NCBI GenBank assembly: GCA_903848275.1
Contig: CAINGB010000030.1
Coordinates: forward strand, 1-58,902
Reading direction: 5' to 3'
DNA from: Candidatus Uhrbacteria bacterium
GTDB taxonomy: Bacteria; Patescibacteriota; Patescibacteriia; UBA9934
DNA: 58,902 bases
Under the pieces are notes generated by a model, which ran no database searches, was not told the origin of the DNA, and was given only the letters and a program-made list of their open reading frames with translations. Below, one piece after another: positions 2,444 through 58,146 of the stretch (positions within the stretch are counted from its first letter, which is position 1; each line of letters starts with the position of its first letter). A program made the position numbers and the translations under genes.

Positions 2444-2583
2444 GTGAGAATTAATTCAAGTCCCGGTCTCGATGAGGCCGGGACTTGTTGTTTGCGGAAA
2501 AGAAGATGCCGACTACCCGCGAGGAGTAGTCGGCACCGAGGGAGCACGACGACTCGTCAGAACTGGTGCGCGGCGCCAGTTCG

Positions 2584-2730
2584 TCAGATCGTGATGCTGA
2601 GGAGCGTGCCGCCGTCGGTGGAGACATGCCCACCGTCCATCTCGTCGCTGACGTGGCCGCCGTCCATGGCGTCCGTGATGCCGCCGCTGATGATGTCGGC
2701 GGTGATGAGTTCGAGGATGCGCTTCATCAT
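2584..2730 (-). CDS. hypothetical 48-aa acidic repeat peptide (MMKRILELITADIISGGITDAMDGGHVSDEMDGGHVSTDGGTLLSITI)
   Basis: Hand-translated ORF below the track cutoff; AGGGA 8 nt upstream of ATG; strong hairpin plus U-run terminator 2497-2534 downstream; GC-rich. Confidence 0.35.
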   Translation of the reverse strand: MMKRILELITADIISGGITDAMDGGHVSDEMDGGHVSTDGGTLLSITI

Positions 2731-2872
2731 GTTACGAGTCCCTGGCTGGAATTATCGCGTGGCCTGGGAGGATCTCAGGTCAGTCGATAGGAATAGCATA
2801 GCATTCGTAGGATGAATTTGCAAAAATAATACGCCCGGCCGGAATGGCTGGGCGTATTATTTTTTACAGAAA

Positions 2873-4129
2873 TTATTTGAAAGCAATGACTTTGGCGATT
2901 ACCTCACCGAGGGAGACACGAGTAGCATCGCCAGCGGTGCGTTCTTTCCACTCTACTTGGTTGTCCGCCAAGGTCTTGTCCGAGATGACCAGGCGAAGTG
3001 GTAGGCCGGTGAGATCTGCGTCGCCGAACTTGGCGCCGGGAGAAAGCTCGCGGTCGTCCCAAAGAACAGAGATGCCGGCGGTTTGGAGATCGGAGTAAAG
3101 CTTAGCGGCGGCGTCAAGAACTGGTGTAGCGTTGTCGCGGCCGGGAATAGAGACGAGGTACACGAGGGCTGGGGCGACTGCTTTGGGCCAGATGATGCCC
3201 TTCTCGTCGTTGTACTTCTCGACGATAACGCCCATAACGCGGGAGATGCCGATACCGTAGCAGCCCATGATTGGGTATTGCTTTTTGTCAGCCTCGTCGA
3301 CGTAGCTCAAGTCAAAATCCTTGCCGTACTTTTGACCGAGGTCAAAGACGTTGCCGACTTCGCAGGCACGACCAGCGACCAAGCCGCCATTACCACAAGG
3401 GCAAACGGCACCAGCGACAGTCTTGGTAATTTCCGTGTTCACACAGTAGTCGCAAGCTTCGCAGTAGAGAATGTCGTCTTCGCCGGCGTCGGTGAGGACC
3501 ATGAACTCGTAGGAGACTTTAGTGGTGAAGGCGCCGCCCGAGGCTTCCGTGACTTTAGCGACGAGGCCCAGACGCGAGAAGACGCGGAGATATGCCTGTT
3601 TGGCTTCGCGGTAGAATTTATCGAAATCTTCCTGGGTGGTGTGAAAGCTGTACATGTCCTTCATGAGGAATTCGCGACCACGCATAATGCCACTTTTGGC
3701 GCGCAGTTCATCGCGGTACTTCCAGCCGATTTGGTAGGTTTTGACGGGGAGCTGTTTGTAGGACAGGACACGGGACATAACGAGTGGCGTCACCACTTCC
3801 TCCTCACTTTGACCCATGGCGTAGTCGTTGCCGGTGCGCGAGTTGATTTTGAAGAGGACGTCAATATTGTCCCAACCGCCAGTTTTAACCCAATTGGCTT
3901 TAGGGTGAAGAGTCGGCATGAGGACCTCGGAAGCGCCAAGAGCGTCCATTTCTTCGCGGACGATTTGTTCGATATTACGCAAAGTGCGGAGGCCAAGCGG
4001 CAAATATGAATAGACGCCGGCCATTAATTGGTCGACGAAGCCAGCCTGCTGGAGCAACTTAGCATTGATTGTTTCCGCGTCAGCAGGCGCTGATTTGGAG
4101 GTCTTAACGAAAGATTGGGATAAACGCAT
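2873..4129 (-). CDS. proS: proline--tRNA ligase (short form, no INS editing domain)
   Basis: 418 aa; class II motifs FLMKDMYSFH and GCYGIGISRV; N-terminus typical of ProRS. Confidence 0.9.
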   Translation of the reverse strand: MRLSQSFVKTSKSAPADAETINAKLLQQAGFVDQLMAGVYSYLPLGLRTLRNIEQIVREEMDALGASEVLMPTLHPKANWVKTGGWDNIDVLFKINSRTGNDYAMGQSEEEVVTPLVMSRVLSYKQLPVKTYQIGWKYRDELRAKSGIMRGREFLMKDMYSFHTTQEDFDKFYREAKQAYLRVFSRLGLVAKVTEASGGAFTTKVSYEFMVLTDAGEDDILYCEACDYCVNTEITKTVAGAVCPCGNGGLVAGRACEVGNVFDLGQKYGKDFDLSYVDEADKKQYPIMGCYGIGISRVMGVIVEKYNDEKGIIWPKAVAPALVYLVSIPGRDNATPVLDAAAKLYSDLQTAGISVLWDDRELSPGAKFGDADLTGLPLRLVISDKTLADNQVEWKERTAGDATRVSLGEVIAKVIAFK

Positions 4130-4205
4130 AGTTATTTGATAGTAATGAAACTGAGGAAATTGCGCAAATGCAAAACCAGAGGACTGCTCTGGCTTCGATT
4201 AAGAG

Positions 4206-4409
4206 CTAGTTCACCACCACCCACTGCCCAATAAAGTGGGTCAAAATGAGGGCAATGCCGATGCCCATGAAGACGAGGGCGACGGTGAAGATGCCTTTGG
4301 CCTCGTGGTCGTCGTTCATGAAGGAGACGAAGATGAAGCCAGCAAAGCCGACAATAAGGAGGAATGGGACGCCGGCCAGAACGAGGCCGACGAGGAGGAG
4401 CATGGACAT
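4206..4409 (-). CDS. small membrane protein, 2 TM helices
   Basis: 67 aa, two hydrophobic helices; hairpin terminator 4172-4195 downstream. Confidence 0.5.
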   Translation of the reverse strand: MSMLLLVGLVLAGVPFLLIVGFAGFIFVSFMNDDHEAKGIFTVALVFMGIGIALILTHFIGQWVVVN

Positions 4410-4659
4410 AGAGAGACGCTTCGTTGATGATATTTGTTTTCTAGCTGCGCCTCGTCAACCGTACCGGCTGGCTCACCTCGTATGACTCGGGGGCCGGCAC
4501 AGGGCCAAGGCTGGCGTCGTCAACAAACATCATCAACAAATCGGTGTTAAGGTTAAGGTAAGTATAGCACAAGCGACGAGGGTAAAAAAGAAAGAACCCC
4601 GCCGCGCAGTTGCGGAGGGGTTCAGTCCAGGCCGTACGAGGACGGCGTGGGAGACGCGG

Positions 4660-5004
4660 CTAGCAGAGCCGCTTGGGGTGGGTGGCGCACCGCACGCCCT
4701 GGTTGACCTGCTGGTCGTGATGCTCGACGATGGCGCGGACCACGAGGTGGCGGTGCTCGACCAGCCGGATGGGCTTGATGACCAGGCCGTGGGCGTCACG
4801 CGGCAGCTCGGCGCGCGGCAGTTCGAGACCGCTGACCAGACGCTGGAGCCGGTTGGCCTCGACGGTGGTGAGCGAGGTGGCCCGGCGCTCGAAGATCGGG
4901 AGAGCGATGGCCAGGAACTTGGCGGCGTGGGACTGCTTATGGCAGCGCTTCTTGCGGGAGGGATCCCGGACGGGGCGGAGGGGTTCGACGGAGGCGATGA
5001 TCAA
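4660..5004 (-). CDS. hypothetical protein (GC-rich island, TTG start)
   Basis: C-terminal 114 codons of track ORF 4660..5436 read protein-like; GAAGGTG 4 nt before TTG at 5004; terminator 4584-4623. Confidence 0.3.
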   Translation of the reverse strand: MIIASVEPLRPVRDPSRKKRCHKQSHAAKFLAIALPIFERRATSLTTVEANRLQRLVSGLELPRAELPRDAHGLVIKPIRLVEHRHLVVRAIVEHHDQQVNQGVRCATHPKRLC

Positions 5005-5110
5005 GTTACACCTTCTGGGTACGGGGATTGGGGAAACCGAGCAGAGCTGCGCGGCGAGAGGATAGTGCCTGAGATTGGCCGAAAAGTCAAGTTGAGAGCC
5101 CGCCAACTGA

Positions 5111-5401
5111 CTAGACAATCTCGACGTAGCTGCCGCCCTTGGCCCGGGGGAACTCTTGAGAAACCACCGCCGTCTGGTCGGCGCAAGGTGCGATGTTCGT
5201 AGCCCGAGCGGCGGCCTGAGCTGAGGCGATGACCCTGGCGGCAGCACGCTCGAGCTTGCGCCGACGACGCTCGGTGATGCGACGATGCCGAGGTACTGCC
5301 TCAATCGAGTCATCGTATTGCGAGTCTGAGGTGGATGAACGCTGGCTGCTCTGACGCGAACGGCCGCGCTGGTGAGGACGGAAGGAGGAGGGGAAAGCCA
5401 A
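5111..5401 (-). CDS. hypothetical basic protein (GC-rich island, TTG start)
   Basis: 96 aa; GAGG 5 nt upstream of TTG; Arg-rich helix RRITERRRRKLERAAARVIA. Confidence 0.35.
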   Translation of the reverse strand: MAFPSSFRPHQRGRSRQSSQRSSTSDSQYDDSIEAVPRHRRITERRRRKLERAAARVIASAQAAARATNIAPCADQTAVVSQEFPRAKGGSYVEIV

Positions 5402-5542
5402 TTGCGCCTCGTTGACAGGTGAGAATGACGCTCCAACGGGATGCTGGAGTGAGAGTATGGTGCCGAGGAATTAGGGGGAAGTCAAGCAGTAGGGGGCCTC
5501 ACCTCACAAACAAAAATATGGCGACCAAAGTCGTCATATTCT

Positions 5543-5835: not shown

Positions 5836-5910
5836 GCATCGGTAGCTCAGCGGTAGAGCAGGTGACTCTTAATCACTTGGTCGTGGGTTCGAATCCCGCC
5901 CGGTGCACCA
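5836..5910 (+). tRNA. tRNA-Lys (anticodon CTT), CCA encoded
   Basis: Acceptor GCATCGG/CCGGTGC, anticodon loop CTCTTAA, T-loop TTCGAAT. Confidence 0.95.
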
Positions 5911-5975
5911 AAATTTCCAGACTCTGGTCTGGATTTTTTGTATCCACACGGAGCCAAGTCAAAGCGGCGGTAAAA

Positions 5976-5984
5976 TGTTATAAT
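5976..5984 (+). promoter_or_regulatory. extended -10 box TGtTATAAT, 8 nt before ATG 5993 (leaderless mRNA predicted)
   Basis: Sequence tgttataat at 5976-5984; no SD between box and ATG. Confidence 0.5.
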
Positions 5985-5992
5985 TTTGTTAT

Positions 5993-6562
5993 ATGACCGA
6001 CTTCCATACGGCACCGATACCGATGAGCAGTAATTTTGCGCCGAAAACTTTTAGTCCGAGCATGATGGCTCCCCCACTGGCTGCCCATGCGCCGAGTCGA
6101 CAAGAAGATACGGTAGGCGAAGAAAGTGAGAGCTTGAAGCACTTGGTGGCTCAGCCTTATAGTGAACGATCGCACAAGACTGAGAAAGCTGAAGCGCCAA
6201 AAGTTAAGAAGGCTGAAGTGAAAGCCCACGAGAAAGCAGAACCTGAACATGAATCGCATCATGGTGGTATTACCTTGAAAACTGGTGGAGCATTAATAGT
6301 TGAAGGAGCTCGGGGATTGAGGCGACAGGTAGCAAAGATGGTGCATCATGGTAAATCTACTTATGCCGGTTTGAGTCATGGTGACCAGCATTTGTTCGTA
6401 GATAAGATTGTGAAGCACGCTAGAGCCTTGACGACTGGCTCAAAGATTGGTTTTACAACTAGACGTAATATTAAGGAGTCACTGCGTGCCGATTATTTGA
6501 AAGGTAAAATCACTTCGACTGACGTCAAGAAAATGAACGAATTAACTGACACTTTGCATTAA
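5993..6562 (+). CDS. hypothetical protein
   Basis: 189 aa ORF; Lys/Glu-rich middle, no recognisable motif. Confidence 0.5.
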   Translation: MTDFHTAPIPMSSNFAPKTFSPSMMAPPLAAHAPSRQEDTVGEESESLKHLVAQPYSERSHKTEKAEAPKVKKAEVKAHEKAEPEHESHHGGITLKTGGALIVEGARGLRRQVAKMVHHGKSTYAGLSHGDQHLFVDKIVKHARALTTGSKIGFTTRRNIKESLRADYLKGKITSTDVKKMNELTDTLH

Positions 6563-6565
6563 TCT

Positions 6566-7615
6566 ATGCTCGAAAAAATCTTTTTGACCATGCTGCTGTT
6601 CGTGCCGGTGACGCTCGTCGCACATTTCCTCAACCTCTCTCCCCTCTTGGTCTTCTTCCTCTCGGCCGTGGCGATTGTGCCGCTGGCTAAGTTTATTGGT
6701 GAAGCGACGGAGGAACTCGCGGTGCATACAGGGCCGGCGCTTGGCGGATTATTAAGCGCGACGTTTGGTAATGCCACCGAGCTGATTATTGCGATTTTTG
6801 CGATTCGGGCGGGGCTCGTTGAGGTGGTTAAGGCGTCGATTACTGGTTCGATTATTGGTAACTTGCTGTTGGTACTTGGCATGTCGATTTTCTTCGGTGG
6901 GATGAAGTACAAGAAGCAGAAGTTCAACAAGACGTTGGCCATGGCGAGTGCGTCGACCTTGCTCTTGGCAGTGATTGCTTTGATTATTCCAGCCATCTTC
7001 GTCATTACGGCACCGGAAGCTGGAAGTAAGATTATTGAGGAGTTGAGTGTGGCGGTGTCGTTTTTGATGATTGGCGTTTATTTGGCCAGTTTGTTGTTCT
7101 CGCTGCGAACACATAAGCATTTGTATGCGGCTGAGGTTGGTAAGGAAGAAGCTGACTGGAGCTTGGCCAAGAGCCTAGTCATCCTAATTGTGGCCACTTT
7201 GGCCGTAGCCTGGATGAGTGAAATCTTAGTCGGTGCGATTGAACCGGCGGTAGCGGTGCTTGGTTGGACTGACTTGTTCATAGGTGTCATCTTCATTGCG
7301 ATTATTGGAAATGCGGCGGAACACACGAGTGCGATTACCATGGCGGTTAAAAATAAAATGGACCTGACACTGCAGATCTCCATTGGTTCCGCCACCCAAA
7401 TTGCCATGTTTGTGACGCCGGTACTCGTCCTGATTAGCGTCTTCTTCCCTACTCAAATGAGCCTGATTTTTAACACGTTCGAACTGGTGGTCATTCTTTT
7501 CTCCGTATTCATCGCGAACTTGATTATTCAGGACGGAGAGACGAATTGGTTCGAGGGGTTACAGCTGCTCGTGGCGTACGGAATAATTGCCGTAGCATTC
7601 TTCTTTCACCCGTAA
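6566..7615 (+). CDS. CaCA family calcium/cation:proton antiporter
   Basis: 349 aa polytopic; two alpha-repeat motifs GNATELIIAI and GNAAEHTSAI. Confidence 0.85.
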   Translation: MLEKIFLTMLLFVPVTLVAHFLNLSPLLVFFLSAVAIVPLAKFIGEATEELAVHTGPALGGLLSATFGNATELIIAIFAIRAGLVEVVKASITGSIIGNLLLVLGMSIFFGGMKYKKQKFNKTLAMASASTLLLAVIALIIPAIFVITAPEAGSKIIEELSVAVSFLMIGVYLASLLFSLRTHKHLYAAEVGKEEADWSLAKSLVILIVATLAVAWMSEILVGAIEPAVAVLGWTDLFIGVIFIAIIGNAAEHTSAITMAVKNKMDLTLQISIGSATQIAMFVTPVLVLISVFFPTQMSLIFNTFELVVILFSVFIANLIIQDGETNWFEGLQLLVAYGIIAVAFFFHP

Positions 7616-10041: not shown

Positions 10042-10070
10042 GTGACATCTCCACCAGACCAGGCCGATGG

Positions 10071-10628
10071 CTAGGCGCCGGGATGATTGGCGCCGAAGAA
10101 GACGCATTCTTCGCGTGCCGTGATGTCACCCTCCCGGTCACCGATGTCGGGCCCGGGGTAGATGGTGATGACCGTGAAGGCCCAGCCGTTGCGGTTGCAG
10201 AAGCCGAGACTATAGACCACGGTGATCAGCCTGGTTCGTGGCGCTAATAAATTCAGCCGCTCTGGTTTGACCTGCAGGCCGCGACACCTGGAGTTGTAGA
10301 TGATGTCCTCGAGATCACTATCGCGGTAATCGCTGAGAGGTGCTGTGGTGGCCCAACCGACCACCTCCTCGTGTTCGAAGTCGAAGCTGCAACGCAGCGG
10401 CCTGGCTGACAGCTCCGCATCAGGCAGCGACTCAGCGACGTCGCCGAGTAGCTCCTCCATGAGACTCGGATCAAGCAATAATTGGGCAGGACTATCCCAA
10501 CGACTGAAGTTGCCGGCCAGTTGAAGAGTACGACCACGGCAATGGCCATGCCTGATCCGCTGAATGTTTTTGGTGGGCAATAGAAGGAGGGCAGACTGTC
10601 CCCCAGGAAGTGTGACGGGCAATTCCAT
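10071..10628 (-). CDS. hypothetical protein (GC-rich insert)
   Basis: 185 aa from MELPVTLPGG; GGAG 8 nt upstream; upstream part of the 221-aa track ORF has no SD. Confidence 0.5.
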   Translation of the reverse strand: MELPVTLPGGQSALLLLPTKNIQRIRHGHCRGRTLQLAGNFSRWDSPAQLLLDPSLMEELLGDVAESLPDAELSARPLRCSFDFEHEEVVGWATTAPLSDYRDSDLEDIIYNSRCRGLQVKPERLNLLAPRTRLITVVYSLGFCNRNGWAFTVITIYPGPDIGDREGDITAREECVFFGANHPGA

Positions 10629-10716
10629 GATGATGACTCCGGCCGGATGTTCCGGCGTTGCTGACGGGTGGTTTGTGATTGTTCGCGCCGATGGCAACGA
10701 ACGGGGTAAATTAAAC

Positions 10717-10770: not shown

Positions 10771-11349
10771 TTATTTGCTGAATTGGAAAGTGGCGAGAAT
10801 ATGTGCGGCGGCGACCGACTGAGTGTCTTTCGTGTCATTTGGCAAGCTTAGAGCATAGAAACTACCGTGCTCGGCCCAGATTTCGTAGGTAGAACCGATG
10901 CCACCGATAGTGATGTTAGAGGCAGGTTGACCGTCGAGAGTTGTGGCGCCGTCGAGCGTGGTCTCGCGACGTTTGCCGTCCTTGAGAAGATCCATGAGGC
11001 TAGTAAAATTCTTAGCTGTCGATAACTCATCGTCGACTGCGTTGTACTGCGCAAAAGTTGTATAAGTTGGCCAGCAGTGAGCCGAGAAGTCGTAGCTAGG
11101 ACCTGGTTCCCCACCGTTAACAGCCGAGTTGGCGGCAAAGTCGGCCTGGGCTTTGGTTGTTTCCGGGCTGACGAGAGTCACGCCGTCAATCTTGGTATCT
11201 TCTGTGGCTGTCCAATTGCTTGGATACTCGAAGGAAATGCCACAAGCGGAGTTGCGGTAAGTTTTATACGTAACGGCAGTGCTTGATGATGAACAGCCGG
11301 CGCCAATGAGGAGTAGGCCGAGAGAAGAGATGAGGAGAAGTTTTTTCAT
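10771..11349 (-). CDS. lipoprotein, function unknown
   Basis: 192 aa from MKKLLLISSLGLLLIGAGC (lipobox); the 233-aa track ORF extends into the rnc 3' end. Confidence 0.7.
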   Translation of the reverse strand: MKKLLLISSLGLLLIGAGCSSSSTAVTYKTYRNSACGISFEYPSNWTATEDTKIDGVTLVSPETTKAQADFAANSAVNGGEPGPSYDFSAHCWPTYTTFAQYNAVDDELSTAKNFTSLMDLLKDGKRRETTLDGATTLDGQPASNITIGGIGSTYEIWAEHGSFYALSLPNDTKDTQSVAAAHILATFQFSK

Positions 11350-13073: not shown

Positions 13074-13128
13074 AGGATATATGTTGAAAGTTGGCTAAAG
13101 AGTAGTTGATTAGCGGAAAAACGTCAAG

Positions 13129-14139
13129 CTAAAGACCGGAGGTGGTGGTGGATAGGAAGGTTTTGACAGCTGCGAAAAACTCAGTCTGTTTAGCATAAAC
13201 CACCCCGTGGCAGCCGGAAAGCTCAATAAATGAAGCACTGGGGAGATACTTCTTCATGGCCTCTACTGCAGCTGGTGGTACCTGAGTATCCAATTGACCG
13301 TAGACAACTAGAGTTGGGACTGTGGCCAAATCTACTAAACTAGCATAAAGGTCCTTAGTGAAAAGCTGCTCATTGGTATTGAAAGCAGTGCCGACGTCAA
13401 CGTCATTTTCGCCTGCTGTCCCCTTTTCCGCCAGGAGCTCTGCGGCCGTGGAGTGCTCAAGGGCTAGGTTCCGTACCGTTTCTTCTTCCTGCTGACAAAA
13501 CCGAGCAACATAATCAGAACCGTAGGCCGTGGTAACAAGCCTACGCTCGGCTTCGAGCGTGGCACTGTCACCTTCGAAGGTTCCTGGTGAGACCAGGATG
13601 TAACCGCTGACGTCAACAGGGTGAGTGTTAGCATACAATACAGCTAGCACACCACCCCAGGAGCGCCCGAAAAGTATAACTTTTTTGTTCGGAATAAGAG
13701 CTGAACGTAAATCATTAATATCTTGAGCGAAGCGAGCGATAGTGATAGTGGAGGCTAGATTAGCAGAACGGTCCGATTGCCCGCCGCCACGCTGGTCAAA
13801 AGTCAACAAAGAACCAAACTGATTGGCGTAGGCAAGAGCCTGACCACTACCACGAAAATCTGCCGTGCTACCGCCTGGTCCACCATGTAAAAAGATCGTC
13901 ACAGTACTAGAGCCACGATTGTAGTACCAGTAATGTAACCGCACTCCGTCACTAACTATAACGTCGCCTTCGATGTTATCACCAGACTGGCTCTGTTCGA
14001 CTGCTGCGTTTTTTGAGACTAGAGGTTCAGCAACGCTCCTCTCCACAATAATTTTAAATAATAATCCAGTGGCAATAACTGCAATAACCAGACCGACAAG
14101 CCAGTAAATTTTGTATGGTAAATATTTTTTTGAGGTCAT
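13129..14139 (-). CDS. alpha/beta hydrolase (prolyl aminopeptidase-like), membrane anchored
   Basis: N-terminal TM; HGGPGG oxyanion motif; nucleophile elbow GRSWGG. Confidence 0.7.
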   Translation of the reverse strand: MTSKKYLPYKIYWLVGLVIAVIATGLLFKIIVERSVAEPLVSKNAAVEQSQSGDNIEGDVIVSDGVRLHYWYYNRGSSTVTIFLHGGPGGSTADFRGSGQALAYANQFGSLLTFDQRGGGQSDRSANLASTITIARFAQDINDLRSALIPNKKVILFGRSWGGVLAVLYANTHPVDVSGYILVSPGTFEGDSATLEAERRLVTTAYGSDYVARFCQQEEETVRNLALEHSTAAELLAEKGTAGENDVDVGTAFNTNEQLFTKDLYASLVDLATVPTLVVYGQLDTQVPPAAVEAMKKYLPSASFIELSGCHGVVYAKQTEFFAAVKTFLSTTTSGL

Positions 14140-14193
14140 AGCTTGGTGGAAAAAACCCGGGCTAGGCCCGGGCGCAAGAAGTGAACGAGCGCT

Positions 14194-14697
14194 CTAGAAG
14201 AAGCAGTCGTAGTCGTCGGTGAACATGAAGTAGAGGTGGCTCACGGTCGTAGCGACCACCCGTACACGAACCTGGTTCGCAGTACCGCACCAGGCCTGGT
14301 AGTTGGCCGAAACGTTGTCCTTGTCGAAGGCCGTGCCACGGATGAACCAGGTGTCGAGCAACGAGTTGACGCTGGCACTCGTCAAGGCATCCCAGCTCGG
14401 AGCCGGTCCGAGCTCATCGATCCAGCAGCCGGAGGGCGTGATGGATGTGATGCCGGTGCCGGTCGCGGTGAGACGCAGAGCACTTGAACAGCCGCCAGCC
14501 GACGGGTTCGACACGTAGTAGGTGTACGTGTACGTCCGTTCGAGCATGGACTCGTCCATGGGGCTGTGTTCGACGAGAGTGCCGTCGTCGAAGGCTTCGT
14601 AGCCCAGACCAGGAACAATGTCGTCGTCCTGCCGGCAAGCCGAGAGAATGCTGATCGAACCGAGGAGCAGCCAGAGCTGCTTGTTGTGAGGGGTCAT
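14194..14697 (-). CDS. Cys-rich lipoprotein (GC-rich insert)
   Basis: 167 aa; signal plus lipobox ILSAC; GGAG 5 nt upstream of ATG. Confidence 0.6.
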   Translation of the reverse strand: MTPHNKQLWLLLGSISILSACRQDDDIVPGLGYEAFDDGTLVEHSPMDESMLERTYTYTYYVSNPSAGGCSSALRLTATGTGITSITPSGCWIDELGPAPSWDALTSASVNSLLDTWFIRGTAFDKDNVSANYQAWCGTANQVRVRVVATTVSHLYFMFTDDYDCFF

Positions 14698-14839
14698 TTC
14701 ATCTCCATGTCTTTAGCCTCATTCATCTCCTTAACTCCACAAAATTATGGCGTCACTGATTTGAGTTTTAGCTTCTGACACTACAAGTTTACTCCCGCTG
14801 CTGCAGAGTCGCTATCGCTATTGTGGATAACCGGGCCAA

Positions 14840-27253: not shown

Positions 27254-27643
27254 CTAGGACGGAGGGAAGAAGGTGAGAGTCCTACCTCCATCCTGACGGT
27301 CGATGACGGTGATGATCCAGTTCTGCTCAGCTGGCAAATGGCGACGCAACGTCTGTTGGAAGGCCTTCATGAATGCGCCACGCTCGGCAACGTCGTCGCT
27401 CGACCAACCACAGGATGGGGTCGAAAGGTTCTCGAAGGTGATGACCGCGATGGTCGGGTTGCCTCCGTTCTGTTCGTACACTTCCCCGAGCACGAAGACA
27501 ACTGGCTCGAATTCGCGAAAGCGATACCGTTGATCAACGAGACATTGGTAAAGATCGAGCCGAAGATCTCGCCGCCAGTCAGCTGGTTTGCAGTCCGACG
27601 GAATGGGGTGGTTTTCAAGGCGGATGATGAGAGGAATACTCAT
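27254..27643 (-). CDS. hypothetical protein (GC-rich insert)
   Basis: 129 aa; GGAGAG before ATG; hairpin ccccg...cgggg downstream; antisense ORF 27203..27712 judged spurious. Confidence 0.55.
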   Translation of the reverse strand: MSIPLIIRLENHPIPSDCKPADWRRDLRLDLYQCLVDQRYRFREFEPVVFVLGEVYEQNGGNPTIAVITFENLSTPSCGWSSDDVAERGAFMKAFQQTLRRHLPAEQNWIITVIDRQDGGRTLTFFPPS

Positions 27644-32687: not shown

Positions 32688-33272
32688 ATGTCCAATCCTG
32701 CAACTGCCGCTGCCCCCTGCCGCCGCGTCCCCATGACCCTTGGTCAGCGCCGGGTGGCCTACTGCAAGCATTTCGTCGCGGCGTACTGGCACTTGTTCCT
32801 GTGCTGGCTGCCGACCCTGCTGGTGCTGGTCTGCGCCATGTTCCACAAGGCGGACTACCAGGCCCTGCCGGGTGTCGCCGGACCGGCAGTGTGGAGTCAG
32901 TGCATGGCGACCTGCGCTGTCTGGCTGGTGACGGTCGCCTGGCGCACGGTGAGCAGCACGCCCCTGGTACTGGCGGTGTTCATCGTCAATCTGGTGGTGC
33001 TGCTGATCCGGGCCAAGGTGCTGCACGACGAGCACCATGGTCACGGGCACGGACACGCCCCCACCGGCATGTTCGCCAAGGCCTGGGCCAAGGTCAAGCC
33101 CGTCCTCCCCTGGACGCCGACCTTCGTGGCGGTAGTGGTTGGGCTCTTGGGCCACAGCTACTACCCGGCGATCTTCGCCAGCCAGGACATGTTCTGCCTG
33201 CCGCTCGCGGTGGCCGTCATGAACGGTAGCTTGATCTGGTGGGTCGGGATCAAGTTCGGTGGTCACCACTAA
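32688..33272 (+). CDS. His-rich 5-TM membrane protein (GC-rich insert)
   Basis: 194 aa from MSNPATAAAP (GGAGA 4 nt upstream); loop HDEHHGHGHGHAP, C-terminal GGHH. Confidence 0.55.
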   Translation: MSNPATAAAPCRRVPMTLGQRRVAYCKHFVAAYWHLFLCWLPTLLVLVCAMFHKADYQALPGVAGPAVWSQCMATCAVWLVTVAWRTVSSTPLVLAVFIVNLVVLLIRAKVLHDEHHGHGHGHAPTGMFAKAWAKVKPVLPWTPTFVAVVVGLLGHSYYPAIFASQDMFCLPLAVAVMNGSLIWWVGIKFGGHH

Positions 33273-39777: not shown

Positions 39778-40440
39778 TCAGTGTCGACGCGGGACGGGGT
39801 CGGGGGTGAGGGTGAACGTAGAGGTAGGGGCGGCGGTGGGACGGAATGCCTCCGCCTCATCTTCCTCACGGAACTGTGTCCTCTCGTCCTCCTTGAGGTG
39901 GCTTTCGAGAGTGTTCCGTGTCGACGGGTTGGCCGGCAGGCCGAACACTACCGTCACTGTCGCGAGTGCCTCCTCACGAGTGTAGGAAACGCTGTTGCCG
40001 CAGGTATTGCCTACGTACACTTCGACGAACTCGTCACCCCTGGGCTCGAAGCACAGGACGTCGCCGCTCTCCGCTTTGGAGGTGCACAGCCGATTGCCAT
40101 ACGCGCTGGTCTTCCACCCGCTATAGCTGAAGCGGGGGTGATTTGCGTCCCAGAGCAATTGAGGCCACCAGTGCTGAAGCTGCTCCATGAGCAGAGCCTC
40201 GCTCACGGGGTTTGTGTACCCGCCAGCAGGACTCGCGACCAACTGGGGCACGATCTGGTAGCTTTCCGTCGGGTCGATGACATACGTCTGACACCCTATC
40301 TTCAGCACCAAGGGCGTCGTGTCCAACGGCCGGGGCGATGGGACGTAGACGAACCCAGGCCTCGCGTCGTACTCCTCGATCGACGGCTTTGCTGTCTCCG
40401 GATCACCGGCGAATGCTGCACTCAGAAAAAGAACCATCAT
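39778..40440 (-). CDS. secreted Cys-containing protein (GC-rich insert)
   Basis: 220 aa from MMVLFLSAAFAG; GGAGG 5 nt upstream; antisense ORF 39646..40485 judged spurious. Confidence 0.55.
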   Translation of the reverse strand: MMVLFLSAAFAGDPETAKPSIEEYDARPGFVYVPSPRPLDTTPLVLKIGCQTYVIDPTESYQIVPQLVASPAGGYTNPVSEALLMEQLQHWWPQLLWDANHPRFSYSGWKTSAYGNRLCTSKAESGDVLCFEPRGDEFVEVYVGNTCGNSVSYTREEALATVTVVFGLPANPSTRNTLESHLKEDERTQFREEDEAEAFRPTAAPTSTFTLTPDPVPRRH

Positions 40441-40588
40441 GGGAACCTCCATGCTCGGGAAGAAAAGTCCGAGCTTGTTTTATAACAATAGCAAAAAATA
40501 TGTATTTTGGCAATGGGAAATGGAAGAAAAGTGGCTGTTATGAGCCAAAATTCCAATTTTACTACTACTCAAATAACTCCGCAAACCA

Positions 40589-40628: not shown

Positions 40629-40958
40629 CTAAACGCCAACCCTTGCTTTTAACAGCGCGACATCGTACCTCAGTTCCGCGATCGGGGTGAGGACGGCGAC
40701 GTCCAAGATTTCGGCGATATCGGAGACGATTTCTGTGCGCATGGTGTGCATGTCGGCACGGAGTTGCTGCATATCCGCTTTTAGTTCACTGCGTAGAGCT
40801 TGTTTGGCGGCATGAATTTCGTCACGCAAATCGAGTTTTAACATGTGATTGTTTTGCTCGATGATATCGGTGACAATGTCCTTGATCATGCCTGGTACAG
40901 TTGTCTGAATGGCGCTCGTAACAATGGTGGCGATTACCACCTGGTCGTTTTTGGTCAT
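40629..40958 (-). CDS. small coiled-coil-like protein, paralog P3
   Basis: 109 aa; same N-terminus MTKNDQVVIATIVT and C-terminal motif as P2. Confidence 0.65.
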   Translation of the reverse strand: MTKNDQVVIATIVTSAIQTTVPGMIKDIVTDIIEQNNHMLKLDLRDEIHAAKQALRSELKADMQQLRADMHTMRTEIVSDIAEILDVAVLTPIAELRYDVALLKARVGV

Positions 40959-41005: not shown

Positions 41006-41014
41006 ATTGTACCA
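41006..41014 (-). promoter_or_regulatory. extended -10 TGgTACAAT of P3
   Basis: attgtacca on the plus strand. Confidence 0.5.
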
Positions 41015-41066
41015 CAACCCGAGGAATGATAAACTTGGATTAGTATTAGCTGATAATTTGTTGTTT

Positions 41067-42119
41067 ATGGAAAAGTCGGGAGAGTTTTTACATAATATTG
41101 CCAAAGTTAATATATTAGGTGCCGAGGTTGGGGTTAAAACAAAAACCAGAAGAAACATTCGGAATCGCTACGAAGGTGCCAAGAGTGAAACAGCGAAAGT
41201 ATTAGATATACCAGGCCAGTTGGGCAAGTTCGTGACGAAAGATCATGTCACAGCTTTGTTACGAGTACTTGGTCAAGCAGAAGGTTTGAAATTTGCCGGT
41301 TTTACCAATGACAGTATTCAGATGCAAGACCTGAACGAGACTTTGCGCAACTTTGACGAAAGATTCGAGGCAAATAGAGATAAGTCAGCAGCTTTTAGTC
41401 CTGAGGACTTGAAAATGTTTTCGTGGCTCAATAAACTTATTGAAGAACGCGTTCTCGATGGCTCGCTGGTAAAATTAACAGAATCTATTCCTGGCTCTGA
41501 AGATTTTTTGTCTGAGCAGTCGTCAGCCCAAGAAATGCGTCAGGAAACAGTTGAGCAGCTAGCTGTTTTGATTAATCGCGTAGCTAAGATTAAGCAGCAA
41601 GCACGAGGCAGCGTTGAGTCGTTCGAAGTTGGGCGATTGACGCAATTACTCGATGAAGTGGAGACTTTTAGCGAACGCTACATTGGGGCATTAGCTTTTG
41701 ATAATCCTGAGTTAGCCGAAAATATTCACCAGGAATATCTCAATAGTGTGAGGGTGGTGCGAGCTGAACTGAAAAAATACAAAGAGAACGCTGGTGATTT
41801 GTATCTGGCCAAACACTTACTGGTGGCGGCGCATTATATTGATAGATCGGGCGTACTGACAGCGTCCTATCAAACGGAAGCAGTTAGAAATTTTGCGCAG
41901 AAGCCTGGTATTGAACGTTTATATTCAGCGTTGGTTGACCTCCACGCCAAAGCTGACGACAAACCAATGCTCTATCACTTCAAGCAGCATACTTTTGATT
42001 TTGAGCGGAAAGTGAAATATATTGGGACGTACGGTTCACTCATGCATATCCGGCCGGAAGTGACGCTGTACGCTGGATGCATGGCTGAATATTTCAAGCA
42101 CCGGGAAGACGAAAAATAA
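41067..42119 (+). CDS. hypothetical 350-aa protein (the track ORF starts at TTG 41007)
   Basis: ATG 41067 lies 9 nt after GATAAT (leaderless pattern); no motif recognised. Confidence 0.55.
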   Translation: MEKSGEFLHNIAKVNILGAEVGVKTKTRRNIRNRYEGAKSETAKVLDIPGQLGKFVTKDHVTALLRVLGQAEGLKFAGFTNDSIQMQDLNETLRNFDERFEANRDKSAAFSPEDLKMFSWLNKLIEERVLDGSLVKLTESIPGSEDFLSEQSSAQEMRQETVEQLAVLINRVAKIKQQARGSVESFEVGRLTQLLDEVETFSERYIGALAFDNPELAENIHQEYLNSVRVVRAELKKYKENAGDLYLAKHLLVAAHYIDRSGVLTASYQTEAVRNFAQKPGIERLYSALVDLHAKADDKPMLYHFKQHTFDFERKVKYIGTYGSLMHIRPEVTLYAGCMAEYFKHREDEK

Positions 42120-42158
42120 AACGCACCCGCCTGAGCCAGAGCCCAAGCGGGGCGTTTT
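42117..42158 (+). terminator. rho-independent terminator
   Basis: acgcacccgc...gcggggcgt then tttt. Confidence 0.6.
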
Positions 42159-42173
42159 GGCAGTTCAGACGGG

Positions 42174-42977
42174 CTAGAGACGGGGGTGAGTGAGGTTGGT
42201 GATGGTGAAGAGGCCGACGTCGTGTGGCAAGCGGAAATCTGGAGAGGTGATCCTTTCCAGATAGAGGTGCACAGCGTACAACAACGAGTCATCCAGCTTG
42301 GCAGGATCGCACTGGAGCAAAAAGGCCACCAGATTATGATTGCGGAAGGAGTTGACGTCGATGCTAGCCACGAAGCCGTGCCGCTCGAAGTGACGCTCCC
42401 CGATCTCCGCCTCCAGCCCGGCGAGAATGGCCTCGACTTCACTGTCGGTGGAGATGATGTGAGGGCCGCCCGTGACGTGTTGACGGAACTGCTCCTGCAC
42501 CTGGTGGATGCCGCGTGGACCGTGATGGCCAATGAGCACTTCCCGACCGAGGCTGAGGATCTTGCGCAAGGCCGCGGTGAGGTCCGGCACGTGGTAGAGC
42601 AGCTGGTAGGCGATGACGAGGTCGAACTGCTCACTGGTGTCGAAGCCGGCCAGGTCGCACTGCAGCAGGCTCAGCTGCGAACCGCTGACGGCCGACACGG
42701 TGCTGGCGAACTGGTCGAGCTGCCCCTGGTGCGGATCGACGCCGAAGTAGTGGAACTTCTGGCCTCGCTCGGTCAACATGTCCATGACGAGCTGGCTCGT
42801 GACACCGTTGCCGCAGCCGAGGTCGAGTACTTTGACCTGACCACCGTATAGGCGCGAGGCACGGTAGCGCAGGTATAGGCGCCTGAAGTGCTCGATGAAG
42901 AGCTGCTTCTCGTTGCTGGCCTTGAGATAGGTGGCGAAAGGGCCGCTGGTGTAGAGAGAGGCGGTGGAAGAGTCCAT
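42174..42977 (-). CDS. class I SAM-dependent methyltransferase (GC-rich insert)
   Basis: 267 aa from MDSSTASLY (GGAG 6 nt upstream); motif I VLDLGCGNG. Confidence 0.7.
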   Translation of the reverse strand: MDSSTASLYTSGPFATYLKASNEKQLFIEHFRRLYLRYRASRLYGGQVKVLDLGCGNGVTSQLVMDMLTERGQKFHYFGVDPHQGQLDQFASTVSAVSGSQLSLLQCDLAGFDTSEQFDLVIAYQLLYHVPDLTAALRKILSLGREVLIGHHGPRGIHQVQEQFRQHVTGGPHIISTDSEVEAILAGLEAEIGERHFERHGFVASIDVNSFRNHNLVAFLLQCDPAKLDDSLLYAVHLYLERITSPDFRLPHDVGLFTITNLTHPRL

Positions 42978-43049
42978 GGTTTGCTCCGAGAGAAAGGATT
43001 GTGACGCCAAAAAGCTACCAAAAATGGCAGCTTTTGTCCAGTGAATAGG

Positions 43050-57112: not shown

Positions 57113-57189
57113 GGGTGTGTAGCTCAGTTGGTTAGAGCGTTTCTCTGATAAGGAAGAGGTCGATGGTTCGAATCCATCCACACCCACCA
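57113..57189 (+). tRNA. tRNA-Ile (anticodon GAT), CCA encoded
   Basis: Acceptor GGGTGTG/CACACCC, anticodon loop CTGATAA. Confidence 0.95.
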
Positions 57190-57196
57190 GAAAAGA

Positions 57197-57271
57197 GCCT
57201 GGGTAGCTCAGTGGTAGAGCAAGGGTCTGAAGAACCCTGTGTCGTCAGTTCGATCCTGACCCCAGGCACCA
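57197..57271 (+). tRNA. tRNA-Phe (anticodon GAA), CCA encoded
   Basis: Acceptor GCCTGGG/CCCAGGC, anticodon loop CTGAAGA. Confidence 0.95.
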
Positions 57272-57295
57272 GAGGGTTAACAAAGTAGAAAATTT

Positions 57296-57371
57296 CGGGC
57301 TATAGCGCAGTTGGTAGCGCGCCTGGTTTGGGACCAGGAGGCCGAGGGTTCAAATCCCTCTGGCCCGACCA
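57296..57371 (+). tRNA. tRNA-Pro (anticodon TGG), CCA encoded
   Basis: Acceptor CGGGCTA/TGGCCCG, anticodon loop TTTGGGA. Confidence 0.95.
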
Positions 57372-57377
57372 AAAAAA

Positions 57378-57402
57378 CTTCAGCTTCGGCTGAGGTTTTT
57401 TT
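57378..57402 (+). terminator. rho-independent terminator of the tRNA cluster
   Basis: cttcagc ttcg gctgagg then ttttttt. Confidence 0.8.
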
Positions 57403-57445
57403 GTTGTCGACGAGGTGAGAGGCGCGGCCAAATCCCTCTTATGCT

Positions 57446-57514
57446 AAACAGAACGCGAGACTCGGGGAGTCCCTCGGTCGACGAAAGGGACACCCCACTC
57501 GTCTTCGTTCTGTT
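57446..57514 (-). repeat. long covarying hairpin element, copy 2 (compact form)
   Basis: aacagaacgcgagactcggggagtccct ... agggacaccccactcgtcttcgttctgtt; outer stem differs from copy 1 but still pairs. Confidence 0.6.
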
Positions 57515-57618
57515 ACAGTGCGTCATGACGGAAACGATCCGTTGCATGGGCATAAAAGGCGAAACGACCTGCAGCCCACGGGAGGGCGGCAAGTCGTTCG
57601 AGACGAGGGCTGGCTCGA

Positions 57619-58059
57619 CTAGTCCTGGGAGCTAGCGAGGATGCGGTCGATGGTGGCGATGAGGATGTTTCCAGGATCGCCGCTCAGCAGGTTGCACTGC
57701 TGCACCAGAGGCGGGGTACGAACACTGGGCGCCAGAAATTTGCGGCCGTGCGTAGCGAGGATGACGGACAGGCGCTCACGACCGGTGTGCCGCAGTGCGC
57801 AGATGGCGGGGAGGACCGCTTCCGCCAGAGCGATCTCGTCTGGTTCGTTCGCCGCCAAGTGGAAGACGAACACGACGTCGACATCGAAGGTGAGGTAGGT
57901 CGCGACGATCTCGGCGATGCCTGGCCTCAGCTCACCAGCTGAGAGATACGGAATGAAGCGCCCGGTAGCACCAAGACAGTCCATGAGGGTGTTGCTGAAC
58001 TGGTCGAAGCGGGTGCTGGCGACAAAGACGATGGGCTTACGAGTAGAAAGGACGGGCAT
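57619..58059 (-). CDS. hypothetical alpha/beta protein (GC-rich insert)
   Basis: 146 aa; GAGG 5 nt upstream; alternating beta-strand-like (IVFVAS, VVFVFHL, SVILATHG) and helical segments. Confidence 0.5.
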   Translation of the reverse strand: MPVLSTRKPIVFVASTRFDQFSNTLMDCLGATGRFIPYLSAGELRPGIAEIVATYLTFDVDVVFVFHLAANEPDEIALAEAVLPAICALRHTGRERLSVILATHGRKFLAPSVRTPPLVQQCNLLSGDPGNILIATIDRILASSQD

Positions 58060-58073
58060 GAGAACCTCGGGGA

Positions 58074-58086
58074 CCAGCTCAGCTGG
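58074..58086. repeat. CCAGCTCAGCTGG palindrome, copy 4
   Basis: Context cctcggggaccagctcagctggccg, in the 5' leader of 57619..58059. Confidence 0.65.
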
Positions 58087-58146
58087 CCGTTGGGTGATTT
58101 GTGCGTCGACATACTAGCCTGATGTTAGCTAAAATGTCAAACAAAA

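What the first reader, a model, noticed from the sequence alone, without database searches (positions are those of the whole stretch)
2490..58100. Mosaic of at least nine short GC-rich, Shine-Dalgarno-led gene inserts in a lower-GC genome
By eye (not computed), nine segments are much richer in G+C than their flanks: 2490-2790, 4584-5450, 10050-10700, 14190-14700, 27205-27660, 32640-33400, 39650-40460, 42125-43010 and 57430-58100. Third codon positions are mostly G/C. The ORF track shows long overlapping ORFs on both strands only in these segments. Each segment holds one or two ORFs with a protein-like translation on one strand and a GGAG/GAGG box about 4-8 nt before the start. Many neighbouring native genes have no SD at all. 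The products are a lipoprotein, a signal-peptide protein, a His-rich 5-TM protein, a SAM methyltransferase, several orphan soluble proteins and a 48-aa peptide. Three inserts abut tRNA or 16S genes. None has an integrase or transposase. Inference: repeated piecemeal acquisition of single genes from a high-GC donor. If this is an episymbiotic CPR bacterium, the donor could be its host lineage.
Basis: partly seen in the sequence, partly recalled or inferred. Interest (0 to 1): 0.75.

Follow-up and report, generated by a model that had tools for sequence, protein, structure and literature searches.

The report
GC-rich Shine-Dalgarno gene cassettes in CPR
The nine GC-rich patches are real small genes with their own ribosome-binding sites, set in a candidate-phyla-radiation genome whose core genes lack such sites, but most are old residents shared with sister species and not fresh imports from a high-GC host.

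Summary
All nine segments are GC peaks. Seven of the nine genes have a third-codon-position GC (GC3) of 0.76-0.92, above every one of 60 native genes (maximum 0.73). Seven of eight carry GGAG or GAGG 5-8 nt before the start, against 7 of 60 natives (p=2.5e-5). The genome is a Patescibacteria (CPR) bacterium, 52% GC. Its core genes look leaderless.

In three sister species, whose GyrA is 98-99% identical, segments 2, 5, 6, 7 and 8 sit in the same slots with the same high GC3 and the same Shine-Dalgarno (SD) box. They are often very divergent (27-86% identity) between flanks that are 90-100% identical. Segment 1 is missing from R1, the only sister genome compared there, and segment 3 from R1 and R3. 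Segment 4, with an adjacent low-GC hydrolase, is missing from all three. Segment 9 could not be compared. Homologues are found only in Patescibacteria, apart from one Sorangium lipoprotein. None is found in viral, phage-family or defence libraries.

The link between SD and high GC3 recurs in sister species (13/20 vs 11/132) and in family-level relatives (13/20 vs 10/79). One sister species carries a GC-rich island with a serine recombinase at tRNA-Glu in the segment-7 slot.

Best reading: these are self-contained, fast-evolving accessory cassettes from a pool confined to this clade, probably carried by mobile elements. Why they are GC-rich is not resolved.

The parts
2584..2730 (-). seg1: 48-aa acidic peptide gene, GC3 .92. 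It lies between the convergent aminoacyl-tRNA synthetase and HU genes. Strong terminator at 2537-2505(-).
   Evidence: Gene call and exact protein in other assemblies. L081 is 100% identical over 2206 nt. Absent from R1, where the synthetase and HU genes are 60 bp apart. Terminator.
4660..5004 (-). seg2b: 114-aa basic protein. TTG start preceded by the conserved AGAAGGTG. GC3 .92. A conserved terminator hairpin and T-run lie at about 4583-4625.
   Evidence: Homologues in the same slot in R1 (54%) and R3 (37%) with GC3 .76-.77. SD and TTG conserved in all three genomes.
5111..5401 (-). seg2a: possible 96-aa Arg-rich ORF with GAGG + TTG start, inside the most variable part of seg2. A conserved promoter-like box lies upstream at about 5487-5455.
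   Evidence: Weak amino-acid conservation with R1 and R3, and conserved GAGG-N6-TTG. Coding status uncertain (GC1/2/3 = .65/.59/.69).
10071..10628 (-). seg3: 185-aa soluble orphan protein, SD GGAG at 8 nt, GC3 .68 (not an outlier). Terminator at 10017-10001(-).
   Evidence: Exact protein on 10 contigs. Absent from R1 and R3, where the slot after RNase III holds other SD-led GC3-rich ORFs. Terminator.
14194..14697 (-). seg4: 167-aa lipoprotein (lipobox LSAC), SD GGAG at 5 nt, GC3 .81. Terminator at 14173-14155(-).
   Evidence: Small lipoprotein family. Same neighbours in at least 5 independent assemblies.
13129..14139 (-). Low-GC alpha/beta hydrolase (GC3 .45), co-inserted with seg4. The 1.7-kb pair (about 13128-14839) sits exactly between the bPH_2 stop codon and the L32 promoter.
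   Evidence: Pfam. bPH_2 and L32 are adjacent in R1, R2 and R3. Junction sequences. The lipoprotein-hydrolase pairing recurs in L172/L173 and on the P0043 contig.
27254..27643 (-). seg5: 129-aa orphan next to FtsH, SD GGAG at 5 nt, GC3 .65 (not an outlier).
   Evidence: Homologues at 30-41% identity in the same slot in R1 and R2, GC3 .67-.79, while the adjacent FtsH is 99% identical.
32688..33272 (+). seg6: 194-aa membrane protein with about five hydrophobic segments and a HDEHHGHGHGH motif, SD GGAG at 5 nt, GC3 .88. Promoter-like site at 32571-32599 (11/12 match, with TG). Terminator at 33359-33385.
   Evidence: R1 orthologue 85% identical with GC3 .88. R2 homologue 27% identical with GC3 .84 and an SD. 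PilB and RsmE are adjacent in L082.
39778..40440 (-). seg7: 220-aa secreted protein, SD GGAGG at 5 nt, GC3 .76. Promoter-like site at 40513-40485.
   Evidence: R1 and R2 orthologues 86% identical with GC3 .74-.76 and dS .18-.19. Part of a 1.25-kb tract 0.88-0.95 identical to R1, against about 0.84 for core genes.
42174..42977 (-). seg8: 267-aa class I SAM methyltransferase, SD GGAG at 6 nt, GC3 .83. Terminator at 42151-42126(-).
   Evidence: Pfam Methyltransf_25/31/12/23/11 above cut-off. Same slot in R1, R2 and R3 at 65-75% identity. Terminator.
57619..58059 (-). seg9: 146-aa orphan with an alpha/beta fold, SD GAGG at 5 nt, GC3 .77. It lies between the 16S 3' end and tRNA-Pro. Promoter-like site at 58140-58111.
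   Evidence: Same junctions in an independent 28.9-kb contig. Low-confidence model with a generic flavodoxin/receiver-like fold.
4206..4409 (-). Additional GC3-rich gene not in the finding: a 67-aa membrane protein, GC3 .84. It has the native start context (no SD, T at -1).
   Evidence: Conserved in R1 and R3.

Best explanation
The nine patches are small accessory-gene cassettes, each holding one or two genes. They lie in the variable slots between conserved core genes of a Patescibacteria (CPR) chromosome.

The genome holds two kinds of gene. Core genes have moderate GC3, no SD, T at -1 and often a -10-like box about 15 nt before the start. That pattern suggests they are probably leaderless or otherwise SD-independent. 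The cassette genes are short and evolve fast. They have G- and C-ending codons and a canonical GGAG(G) 5-8 nt before the start. Consensus scans place a promoter-like site with a 40-80 nt leader upstream of seg1, 6, 7 and 9, and an intrinsic-terminator-like site downstream of seg1, 3, 4, 6 and 8. Their products are a lipoprotein, a secreted protein, a membrane protein, a methyltransferase and orphan proteins.

The class is confined to this CPR clade. Most cassettes predate the split of the sister species and keep their slot, composition and SD. Others are gained, lost or replaced by very divergent alleles, through recombination in the conserved flanks.

Inferred, not shown: the pool is carried by GC-rich integrative elements of the clade, and the cassettes are their cargo or remnants. 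They are not pieces of a high-GC host genome.
For: Two gene classes:
- GC3 separates them. SD: 7/8 against 7/60 in the window, 13/20 against 11/132 in sister genomes and L172, and 13/20 against 10/79 in family-level relatives with 43-49% GC.
- Natives have T at -1 in 75% of cases. None of the 8 cassette genes does, read from the upstream sequences listed. A TANNNT box peaks 14-16 nt upstream of native starts.
- Codon choice differs in kind from native high-GC3 genes.

Self-contained units:
- Promoter-like sites lie upstream of seg6, 7 and 9. Top-ranked terminators lie downstream of seg1, 3, 4, 6 and 8.

Confined to the clade and mostly old:
- Same slots, GC3 and SD in R1, R2 and R3 for seg2, 5, 6, 7 and 8.
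- Methyltransferase homologues occur only in Patescibacteria. All cassette proteins are singleton 90% clusters.

Turnover by recombination:
- Alleles are 27-54% identical between flanks that are 90-99% identical.
- Seg4 plus the hydrolase is inserted precisely between a stop codon and a promoter.
- Seg7 lies in a 1.25-kb tract of raised identity to R1, with dS .18 against about .9 in flanking genes.

Mobile vehicle:
- R3 has a 4.5-kb island (GC .53-.64) holding SD-led GC3-rich genes and a large serine recombinase that ends on tRNA-Glu, in the seg7 slot.
Against: - No free or complete mobile element with this composition was found. The window has no recombinase, and no flanking direct repeats were seen at the seg1 and seg4 junctions.
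- There are no matches in IMG/VR for seg4, 6 or 7, nor in PHROGs or PADLOC. The only hits there are to the generic methyltransferase fold.
- Some evidence points to composition being maintained in place, not imported. The lipoprotein-hydrolase module keeps its GC3 split in two genomes. Polarised synonymous changes give a higher equilibrium GC3 for seg7 and seg8 (.71, CI .61-.78) than for natives (.57), through a halved GC-to-AT rate. That rests on only 309 sites.
- Mobile elements are usually more AT-rich than their hosts (my own knowledge), so a GC-rich pool needs its own explanation.
Confidence: 0.55

Rival explanations
1. An endogenous gene class kept GC3-rich by selection. The cassettes are native, lineage-specific genes, many for the envelope or for secretion. 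Because their mRNAs have leaders, they use SD-dependent initiation. Their G/C-ending codons are maintained by selection, for example on mRNA stability or structure or on a distinct expression regime. They are not imported.
For: - Composition and SD are conserved in orthologues and in 27-54% identical alleles.
- The lipoprotein-hydrolase module shows the same GC3 split (.81-.87 against .44-.45) in two genomes whose hydrolases are only 44% identical.
- The GC-to-AT synonymous rate is halved in seg7 and seg8, giving an equilibrium GC3 of .71 against .57.
- Homologues occur only in CPR.
Against: - Genes usually highly expressed in bacteria (L32, HU, S1) have an ordinary GC3 of .55-.65. G/C-ending codons are therefore not the native optimal set.
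- The class uses G-ending codons that natives avoid.
- Seg7's low dS extends into the non-coding spacer and the neighbouring gene. That fits recent exchange better than codon constraint.
- Presence/absence polymorphism and the recombinase island in R3.
- A lipoprotein of native composition also exists at 10771-11349, so function alone does not define the class.
Confidence: 0.22
2. One reading: repeated, independent, recent acquisitions of single genes from a high-GC donor, possibly the host of this episymbiont. The DNA would be taken up and inserted without an integrase.
For: - Composition, codon choice and SD all look foreign.
- Seg1 is missing from R1, seg3 from R1 and R3, and seg4 from all three sister genomes.
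- Seg6 and seg7 lack the strong native strand skew at third positions.
- One homologue of seg4 is in Sorangium, a high-GC myxobacterium (the high GC is from my own knowledge).
- A type IV pilus ATPase gene is present. A link to DNA uptake is my inference.
Against: - Five of the nine are in the same slot with the same composition in congeners.
- No non-CPR homologues exist for seg8 or seg9 among billions of proteins.
- The Sorangium protein is the most distant member of its family (37-38%) and lies in an unrelated context.
- Seg4 arrived together with a low-GC gene as an established CPR module.
- Cassettes of the same GC occur in relatives whose genomes are 43-53% GC.
Confidence: 0.12
3. GC-biased gene conversion at recombination hot spots. 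The variable slots recombine often between strains, and biased repair drives third positions towards G and C.
For: - Mosaic identity profiles and allele replacement in these slots.
- Both G3 and C3 are raised uniformly across amino acids.
- The GC-to-AT fixation rate is reduced.
Against: - The 5' spacers of the cassettes stay AT-rich (.39-.51). Adjacent genes in the same slots (hydrolase, AbiE, 41007-42119) are low-GC.
- The effect, about +0.25 in GC3, is far larger than I know to have been reported for bacteria.
- It does not explain the SD association.
Confidence: 0.08
4. An artefact: chimeric assembly or binning, or GC-rich non-coding DNA in which ORFs arise by chance.
For: Gene callers disagree on the strand in several GC-rich slots of relatives. 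Much of seg2 has no stable ORF.
Against: - Identical junctions in independent assemblies.
- Orthologues with dN/dS of 0.3-0.65 and strong three-base periodicity.
- Lipobox, signal peptide and Pfam domain.
Confidence: 0.02

Closest known systems
Phage 'morons' (Hendrix-type extra genes inserted between genes that are adjacent in related genomes; recalled from my own knowledge)
   Same: One or two genes inserted between neighbours that are contiguous in relatives. Composition differs from the flanks. Promoter-like site upstream and terminator-like site downstream (consensus matches). No recombinase beside the gene.
   Different: These lie in a bacterial chromosome, not a prophage. They are GC-richer than the flanks. 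They also differ from the flanks in translation-initiation mode. Many are conserved in position across species.
Classical genomic islands or islets acquired by horizontal transfer
   Same: Atypical GC, codon usage and dinucleotide signature. Patchy distribution for some. Some lie next to tRNA genes. One sister species has a recombinase-bearing island at tRNA-Glu.
   Different: Most are single genes of 150-840 bp. The window has no mobility genes or direct repeats. Five of the nine are syntenic in congeners. No donor is detectable. They are GC-rich, whereas most horizontally acquired DNA is AT-rich (my own knowledge).
Flexible 'replacement' genomic islands (same locus, very divergent alleles between strains, as at O-antigen loci; from my own knowledge)
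   Same: Alleles 27-54% identical in the same slot between nearly identical flanks (seg2, 5, 6, 8).
   Different: Single small genes of unknown function, not multi-gene glycosylation clusters, and with a shared compositional and SD signature.
Bacterial genomes with mainly leaderless transcription plus 'atypical' genes, as modelled in GeneMarkS-2 (PMC6028130; found by title and abstract, not read)
   Same: A promoter-like box close to the start codon of most genes, and a minority of genes with different statistics.
   Different: Here the atypical minority is specifically SD-led and GC3-rich, and the pairing recurs across a CPR family. I did not find this described.

Membership tests
Horizontally acquired genomic island | Composition atypical for the genome | tested here: met
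   GC3, codon choice and dinucleotide delta*. Seg3 and seg5 are only marginal.
Horizontally acquired genomic island | Absent from close relatives, with contiguous flanks | tested here: inconclusive
   Met for seg1 (R1), seg3 (R1, R3) and seg4 plus hydrolase (R1-R3). Not met for seg2, 5, 6, 7 and 8, which are present in the same slots. Seg9 was not testable.
Horizontally acquired genomic island | Mobility gene or flanking direct repeats | tested here: not met
   No integrase or transposase domain in the window. No repeats at the seg1 and seg4 junctions. A serine recombinase is present only in the R3 island.
Horizontally acquired genomic island | Identifiable donor lineage | tested here: not met
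   Homologues are restricted to Patescibacteria, apart from one distant Sorangium protein. Only seg4, seg8 and seg9 were searched deeply.
Moron-like autonomous gene cassette | Extra gene between genes that are adjacent in relatives | tested here: met
   Seg1 (synthetase-HU), seg4 plus hydrolase (bPH_2-L32), and seg6 relative to L082 (PilB-RsmE).
Moron-like autonomous gene cassette | Own promoter and terminator | tested here: inconclusive
   Consensus matches only. Promoter-like sites for seg6, 7 and 9, and by eye for seg1. Terminators for seg1, 3, 4, 6 and 8. No transcript data.
Integron gene cassettes | Array beside an integron integrase, with attC sites | tested here: not met
   The cassettes are scattered over 55 kb and no integrase is present. 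The 3' hairpins are followed by T-runs, as in terminators. No attC model was run.
Class I SAM-dependent methyltransferase (seg8) | Pfam methyltransferase domain above the curated cut-off | tested here: met
   Methyltransf_25 scores 45.5 bits against a cut-off of 27, with four related families also above cut-off. The substrate is unknown.
Bacterial lipoprotein (seg4) | Signal peptide ending in a lipobox L-[AS]-[GA]-C | tested here: met
   ILSAC at residues 17-21. The cysteine is invariant in all six family members. No dedicated predictor was run.
Leaderless-transcript architecture (core genes) | A -10 box a few nt upstream of the start codon, and no SD | tested here: inconclusive
   53 of 60 natives have no SD. 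TANNNT lies at 11-17 nt in 20 of 59, and T is at -1 in 75%. Transcription start sites cannot be tested here.

The most novel reading that the evidence does not exclude
A whole family of CPR bacteria keeps two separate gene populations in one chromosome. One is an SD-less, probably leaderless core. The other is a scattered, hypervariable set of SD-led genes with G/C-ending codons, many for envelope or secreted proteins. The second set's composition is independent of the genome's own GC (43-53%) and is actively maintained or continually replenished. The source would be either an unrecognised family of GC-rich integrative elements specific to CPR or a dedicated expression regime for host-interaction genes.
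Probability: 0.3. Interest if true: 0.75.

Novelty: new variant of a known kind. Interest (0 to 1): 0.58.

Why it matters
CPR bacteria are thought to depend on host cells, and their lineage-specific surface and orphan proteins are the main candidates for that interaction. This analysis gives a simple sequence rule (SD plus high GC3) that picks out a fast-evolving accessory gene set in one CPR family. The rule could be used to list candidate host-interaction or mobile genes in hundreds of metagenome-assembled genomes.

It also shows that composition alone is a poor clock for horizontal transfer here. Genes that look foreign have kept their slots across species.

There are practical lessons for annotation too. 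Gene callers flip strand in these patches, and the core genes probably need a leaderless start model.

Tried and rejected
- A concatenated query of five orphan proteins joined by X spacers returned nothing, not even self hits. It wasted one of three homology searches. As a result seg3, 5, 6 and 7 were never searched deeply on their own.
- The GTDB genome scan with GyrA found only relatives at 66% identity or less. The metagenome scan with TsaD found relatives at 68% or less. These served for family-level synteny only. The close relatives came from the methyltransferase homologues and from members of the 90% clusters.
- Seg2 as a structured RNA: rejected for now. Rfam gave no match even at E<=1, nhmmer found it only in R1 and R3, and two conserved SD+TTG ORFs explain part of the conservation. 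The very conserved 90-nt block upstream of the second ORF remains unexplained. I did not fold it.
- Phage, defence and viral origin: PHROGs, PADLOC and IMG/VR gave nothing specific.
- An apparent match of seg7 to TsaD regions of several loci was set aside as a chance hit repeated across a database made of TsaD loci.
- The structure of seg9 came out as a low-confidence (pLDDT 65), generic alpha/beta fold with TM-scores of 0.4-0.5 to receiver domains. It is not informative.
- The Sorangium context shows no hydrolase neighbour and gives no sign of the direction of transfer.
- A first polarised-substitution run that included R3 suggested net GC loss in the cassettes. It was driven by the genome-wide GC decline in R3. 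I redid it without R3.

Full report
**What the window is.** The window is 58,902 bp at 52.1% GC. It carries housekeeping genes: RNase Y, an aminoacyl-tRNA synthetase, RNase III, NusB, GyrA, S1, FtsH, a PilB-type ATPase, RsmE, TsaE/TsaD, SOD, ClpP, the Suf genes and RNase HII. It also holds six tRNA genes and the 3' part of a 16S rRNA gene. The best GyrA matches among species representatives are Magasanikbacteria, Uhrbacteria, Buchananbacteria and Falkowbacteria genomes, at 66% identity or less. The organism is therefore a Patescibacteria (CPR) bacterium with no close representative genome.

**Checking the observation.**
- All nine segments are local GC maxima of 0.57-0.70.
- On raw GC they are not unique. 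Only seg2, 6 and 8 exceed mean + 2 sd of 300-nt windows. Native patches at 35.1-35.5 kb, 54.2-54.4 kb and 56.1-56.4 kb reach 0.62-0.63.
- The gene models were settled by exact look-up. The ORFs listed under 'parts' are present as exact sequences in public collections, on 2-10 contigs, each a singleton at 90% identity.
- GC3 of the nine is .92.86.68.81.65.88.76.83 and .77. Sixty other genes have mean .587, sd .09 and maximum .73 (Mann-Whitney p=6.6e-6). Seven are true outliers. Seg3 and seg5 are not.
- The SD claim holds strongly. GGAG or GAGG lies 5-8 nt before the start in 7 of 8 cassette genes, against 7 of 60 others (Fisher p=2.5e-5). The second ORF of seg2 has a conserved AGAAGGTG before a TTG start. 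The 16S 3' end carries the canonical CACCUCCUU.
- Native starts have T at -1 in 75% of cases and a TANNNT box that peaks 14-16 nt upstream. This suggests leaderless or SD-independent initiation.
- Long antisense ORFs are not restricted to the segments. They are the expected by-product of rare A-ending codons.
- Only Pfam's methyltransferase families match any of the products.
- Assembly chimeras are excluded. L081, from another sample, is 100% identical across seg1 and both junctions. Seg4 has the same neighbours in at least five assemblies. Seg9 has the same neighbours in a 28.9-kb contig.

**Relatives.** Family-level relatives (TsaD 62-68% identical; loci L082-L086) keep the core order. They lack the cassettes: PilB and RsmE are adjacent in L082, and S1 and FtsH are adjacent in all four. 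They have their own GC-rich small ORFs in the variable slots.

The methyltransferase search was the key step. It found only five homologues, all of Patescibacteria type. Their contigs turned out to be three sister species:
- R1: ENA ERZ4201063/4, including a 1.08-Mb contig.
- R2: JGI Ga0103682_10000166, labelled Uhrbacteria.
- R3: Logan SRR22388344.

In these genomes GyrA is 97.6-99.4% identical, ClpP 98-100%, and core dS is about 0.5-1.3. Gene order is the same.

**Fate of each segment in the sister species**.

| Segment | Sister genomes | Composition there |
|---|---|---|
| seg8 (methyltransferase) | Same slot in all three, 65-75% identical | GC3 .82, .79, .63 |
| seg7 | Same slot in R1 and R2, 86% | GC3 .74-.76 |
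| seg6 | Same slot: R1 85%, R2 27% | GC3 .88 and .84 |
| seg5 | Next to FtsH in R1 (30%) and R2 (33-41%); FtsH itself is 99% identical | GC3 .67-.79 |
| seg2 | Same slot: R1 54%, R3 37% | GC3 .76-.77 |
| seg1 | Absent from R1; synthetase and HU genes 60 bp apart | - |
| seg3 | Absent from R1 and R3; other SD-led GC-rich ORFs fill the slot | - |
| seg4 + low-GC hydrolase | Absent from all three; the 1.7-kb pair sits exactly between the bPH_2 stop codon and the conserved L32 promoter | - |
| seg9 | Could not be compared | - |

The SD is conserved in the orthologues.

**A class, not nine accidents.**
- Among 152 called genes in the sister loci and in L172, an SD is present in 13 of 20 genes with GC3 of .72 or more, against 11 of 132 others (p=5e-8). 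Several of the 'others' are wrong-strand calls inside GC-rich patches.
- In L082-L086, whose genomes are 43-49% GC, the figures are 13 of 20 against 10 of 79 (p=6e-6). The gene calling there was crude.
- Codon choice separates the class from native high-GC3 genes. Natives prefer NNC, but also AAA, GAA and CAA, and they avoid NNG (CGG .02, CTG .10). The class uses AAG .82, GAG .69, CAG .87, CGG .24 and CTG .33.
- The dinucleotide signature differs: delta* 160 against 39±12 for native subsets. Codon-position periodicity confounds this measure.
- Consensus scans place good promoter-like sites upstream of seg6, 7 and 9. The strongest terminator-like hairpins of the window lie just downstream of seg1, 3, 4, 6 and 8.
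- The 5' spacers are AT-rich (.39-.51) and the 3' spacers are GC-rich (.50-.67).

**Origin.**
- No donor was found. Seg9 has no relatives among 1.84 billion representatives apart from two weak hits.
- Seg4 belongs to a small lipoprotein family with four CPR-type members and one Sorangium protein. The Sorangium protein is 37% identical, the most divergent member, and lies in an unrelated context.
- In two other genomes the lipoprotein is again followed by an alpha/beta hydrolase. The split is the same: GC3 .87 for the lipoprotein and .44 for the hydrolase in L172, against .81 and .45 here.
- Viral contigs, PHROGs and PADLOC gave nothing.
- R3 provides one direct lead to a vehicle. In the slot that holds seg7 here, it has a 4.5-kb island (GC .53-.64 against flanks of .44-.50). 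The island carries SD-led GC3-rich genes and a large serine recombinase whose 3' end overlaps tRNA-Glu.

**Evolutionary rates.**
- Cassette genes have dN/dS of 0.3-0.65, against 0.01-0.1 for core genes.
- Seg6 and seg7 have a low dS of .18-.30, against about .9 in flanking genes.
- For seg7, the raised nucleotide identity to R1 (0.88-0.95, against about 0.84 for core genes) extends over 1.25 kb. It includes the spacer and the neighbouring gene. This indicates a recombination tract and not codon constraint.
- Polarised synonymous changes among the window, R1 and R2 give an equilibrium GC3 of .71 (CI .61-.78) for seg7 and seg8, against .57 (.55-.59) for natives. The difference comes from a halved GC-to-AT rate. 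It rests on 309 sites in two genes, so it only hints that the composition is maintained.

**Conclusion.** It is shown that the patches are real genes and that they form a distinct SD-led, GC3-rich class. The class recurs across a CPR family, is restricted to that clade as far as the databases show, and is mostly older than the sister-species split. Turnover by insertion, loss and allele replacement is also shown. It is inferred that the cassettes are cargo or remnants of GC-rich integrative elements, and that core genes are leaderless. Why the class is GC-rich is not resolved. Imported composition, selection and biased gene conversion all remain possible.

Noticed in passing
whole window (starts of 60 native genes): Core genes almost never have an SD, although the 16S 3' end carries CACCUCCUU. 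T is at -1 in 75% of them, and a TANNNT box peaks 14-16 nt before the start. This looks like a mostly leaderless genome.
   Followed up: partly
window 23200-27130: A low-GC block (0.40-0.46) with an AbiEii/AbiEi toxin-antitoxin pair, an SDR dehydrogenase and small ORFs lies between S1 and FtsH. Those two genes are adjacent in four family-level relatives. In sister species R1, a SocA/Panacea pair replaces AbiE in this slot.
   Followed up: partly
window 2584-2730 (-): The 48-aa peptide MMKRILELITADIISGG-ITDAMDGGHVSDEMDGGHVSTDGG... has a double-glycine-like leader and a tandem DxMDGGHVS repeat. It may be a bacteriocin- or RiPP-like precursor. No processing genes are in the window.
   Followed up: no
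window 4206-4409 (-): A 67-aa membrane protein with GC3 .84 has a native start context (no SD) and is conserved in R1 and R3. It is a tenth GC3-rich gene outside the listed segments. The ORF 4246-4485(+) is its antisense shadow.
   Followed up: partly
window 5005-5100 (-): A block of about 90 nt just upstream of the second seg2 ORF is far better conserved among the window, R1 and R3 than the coding parts. It contains a TTGACTT-N17-CACTAT box that duplicates one at about 5487. It may be a regulatory leader. There is no Rfam match.
   Followed up: partly
window 38740-39027, 39305-39568, 40629-40958 (all -): Three paralogous small genes with nearly identical upstream sequences (TTTTTTGTTCACTCT ATG) surround tRNA-Glu. 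The tRNA is on the opposite strand relative to seg7 in R1-R3, which suggests a small inversion in this genome.
   Followed up: no
L162 9463-13884: Sister species R3 has a 4.5-kb GC-rich island with SD-led small genes and a 508-aa serine recombinase that overlaps tRNA-Glu. The recombinase is only 22-26% identical to phage serine integrases.
   Followed up: partly
window 57113-58902 and L179: The 16S gene is followed by seg9 and then tRNA-Pro, Phe and Ile on the other strand, not by 23S. The rRNA genes are unlinked. Upstream of the 16S lie TrmD, KhpA and S16.
   Followed up: no
whole window: There is very strong strand skew at third codon positions. G3 exceeds C3 in + strand genes, and C3 far exceeds G3 in - strand genes. 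Cumulative GC skew rises monotonically, so the window lies on one replichore. Seg6 and seg7 lack this skew.
   Followed up: partly
L172/L173 (GCA_023246145.1), 1136-1525 and 5853-6584: Another CPR-type contig has further SD-led GC3-rich small genes, including a second lipoprotein, beside a Y1 transposase-like gene. So the class is also seen outside the genus sampled here.
   Followed up: no
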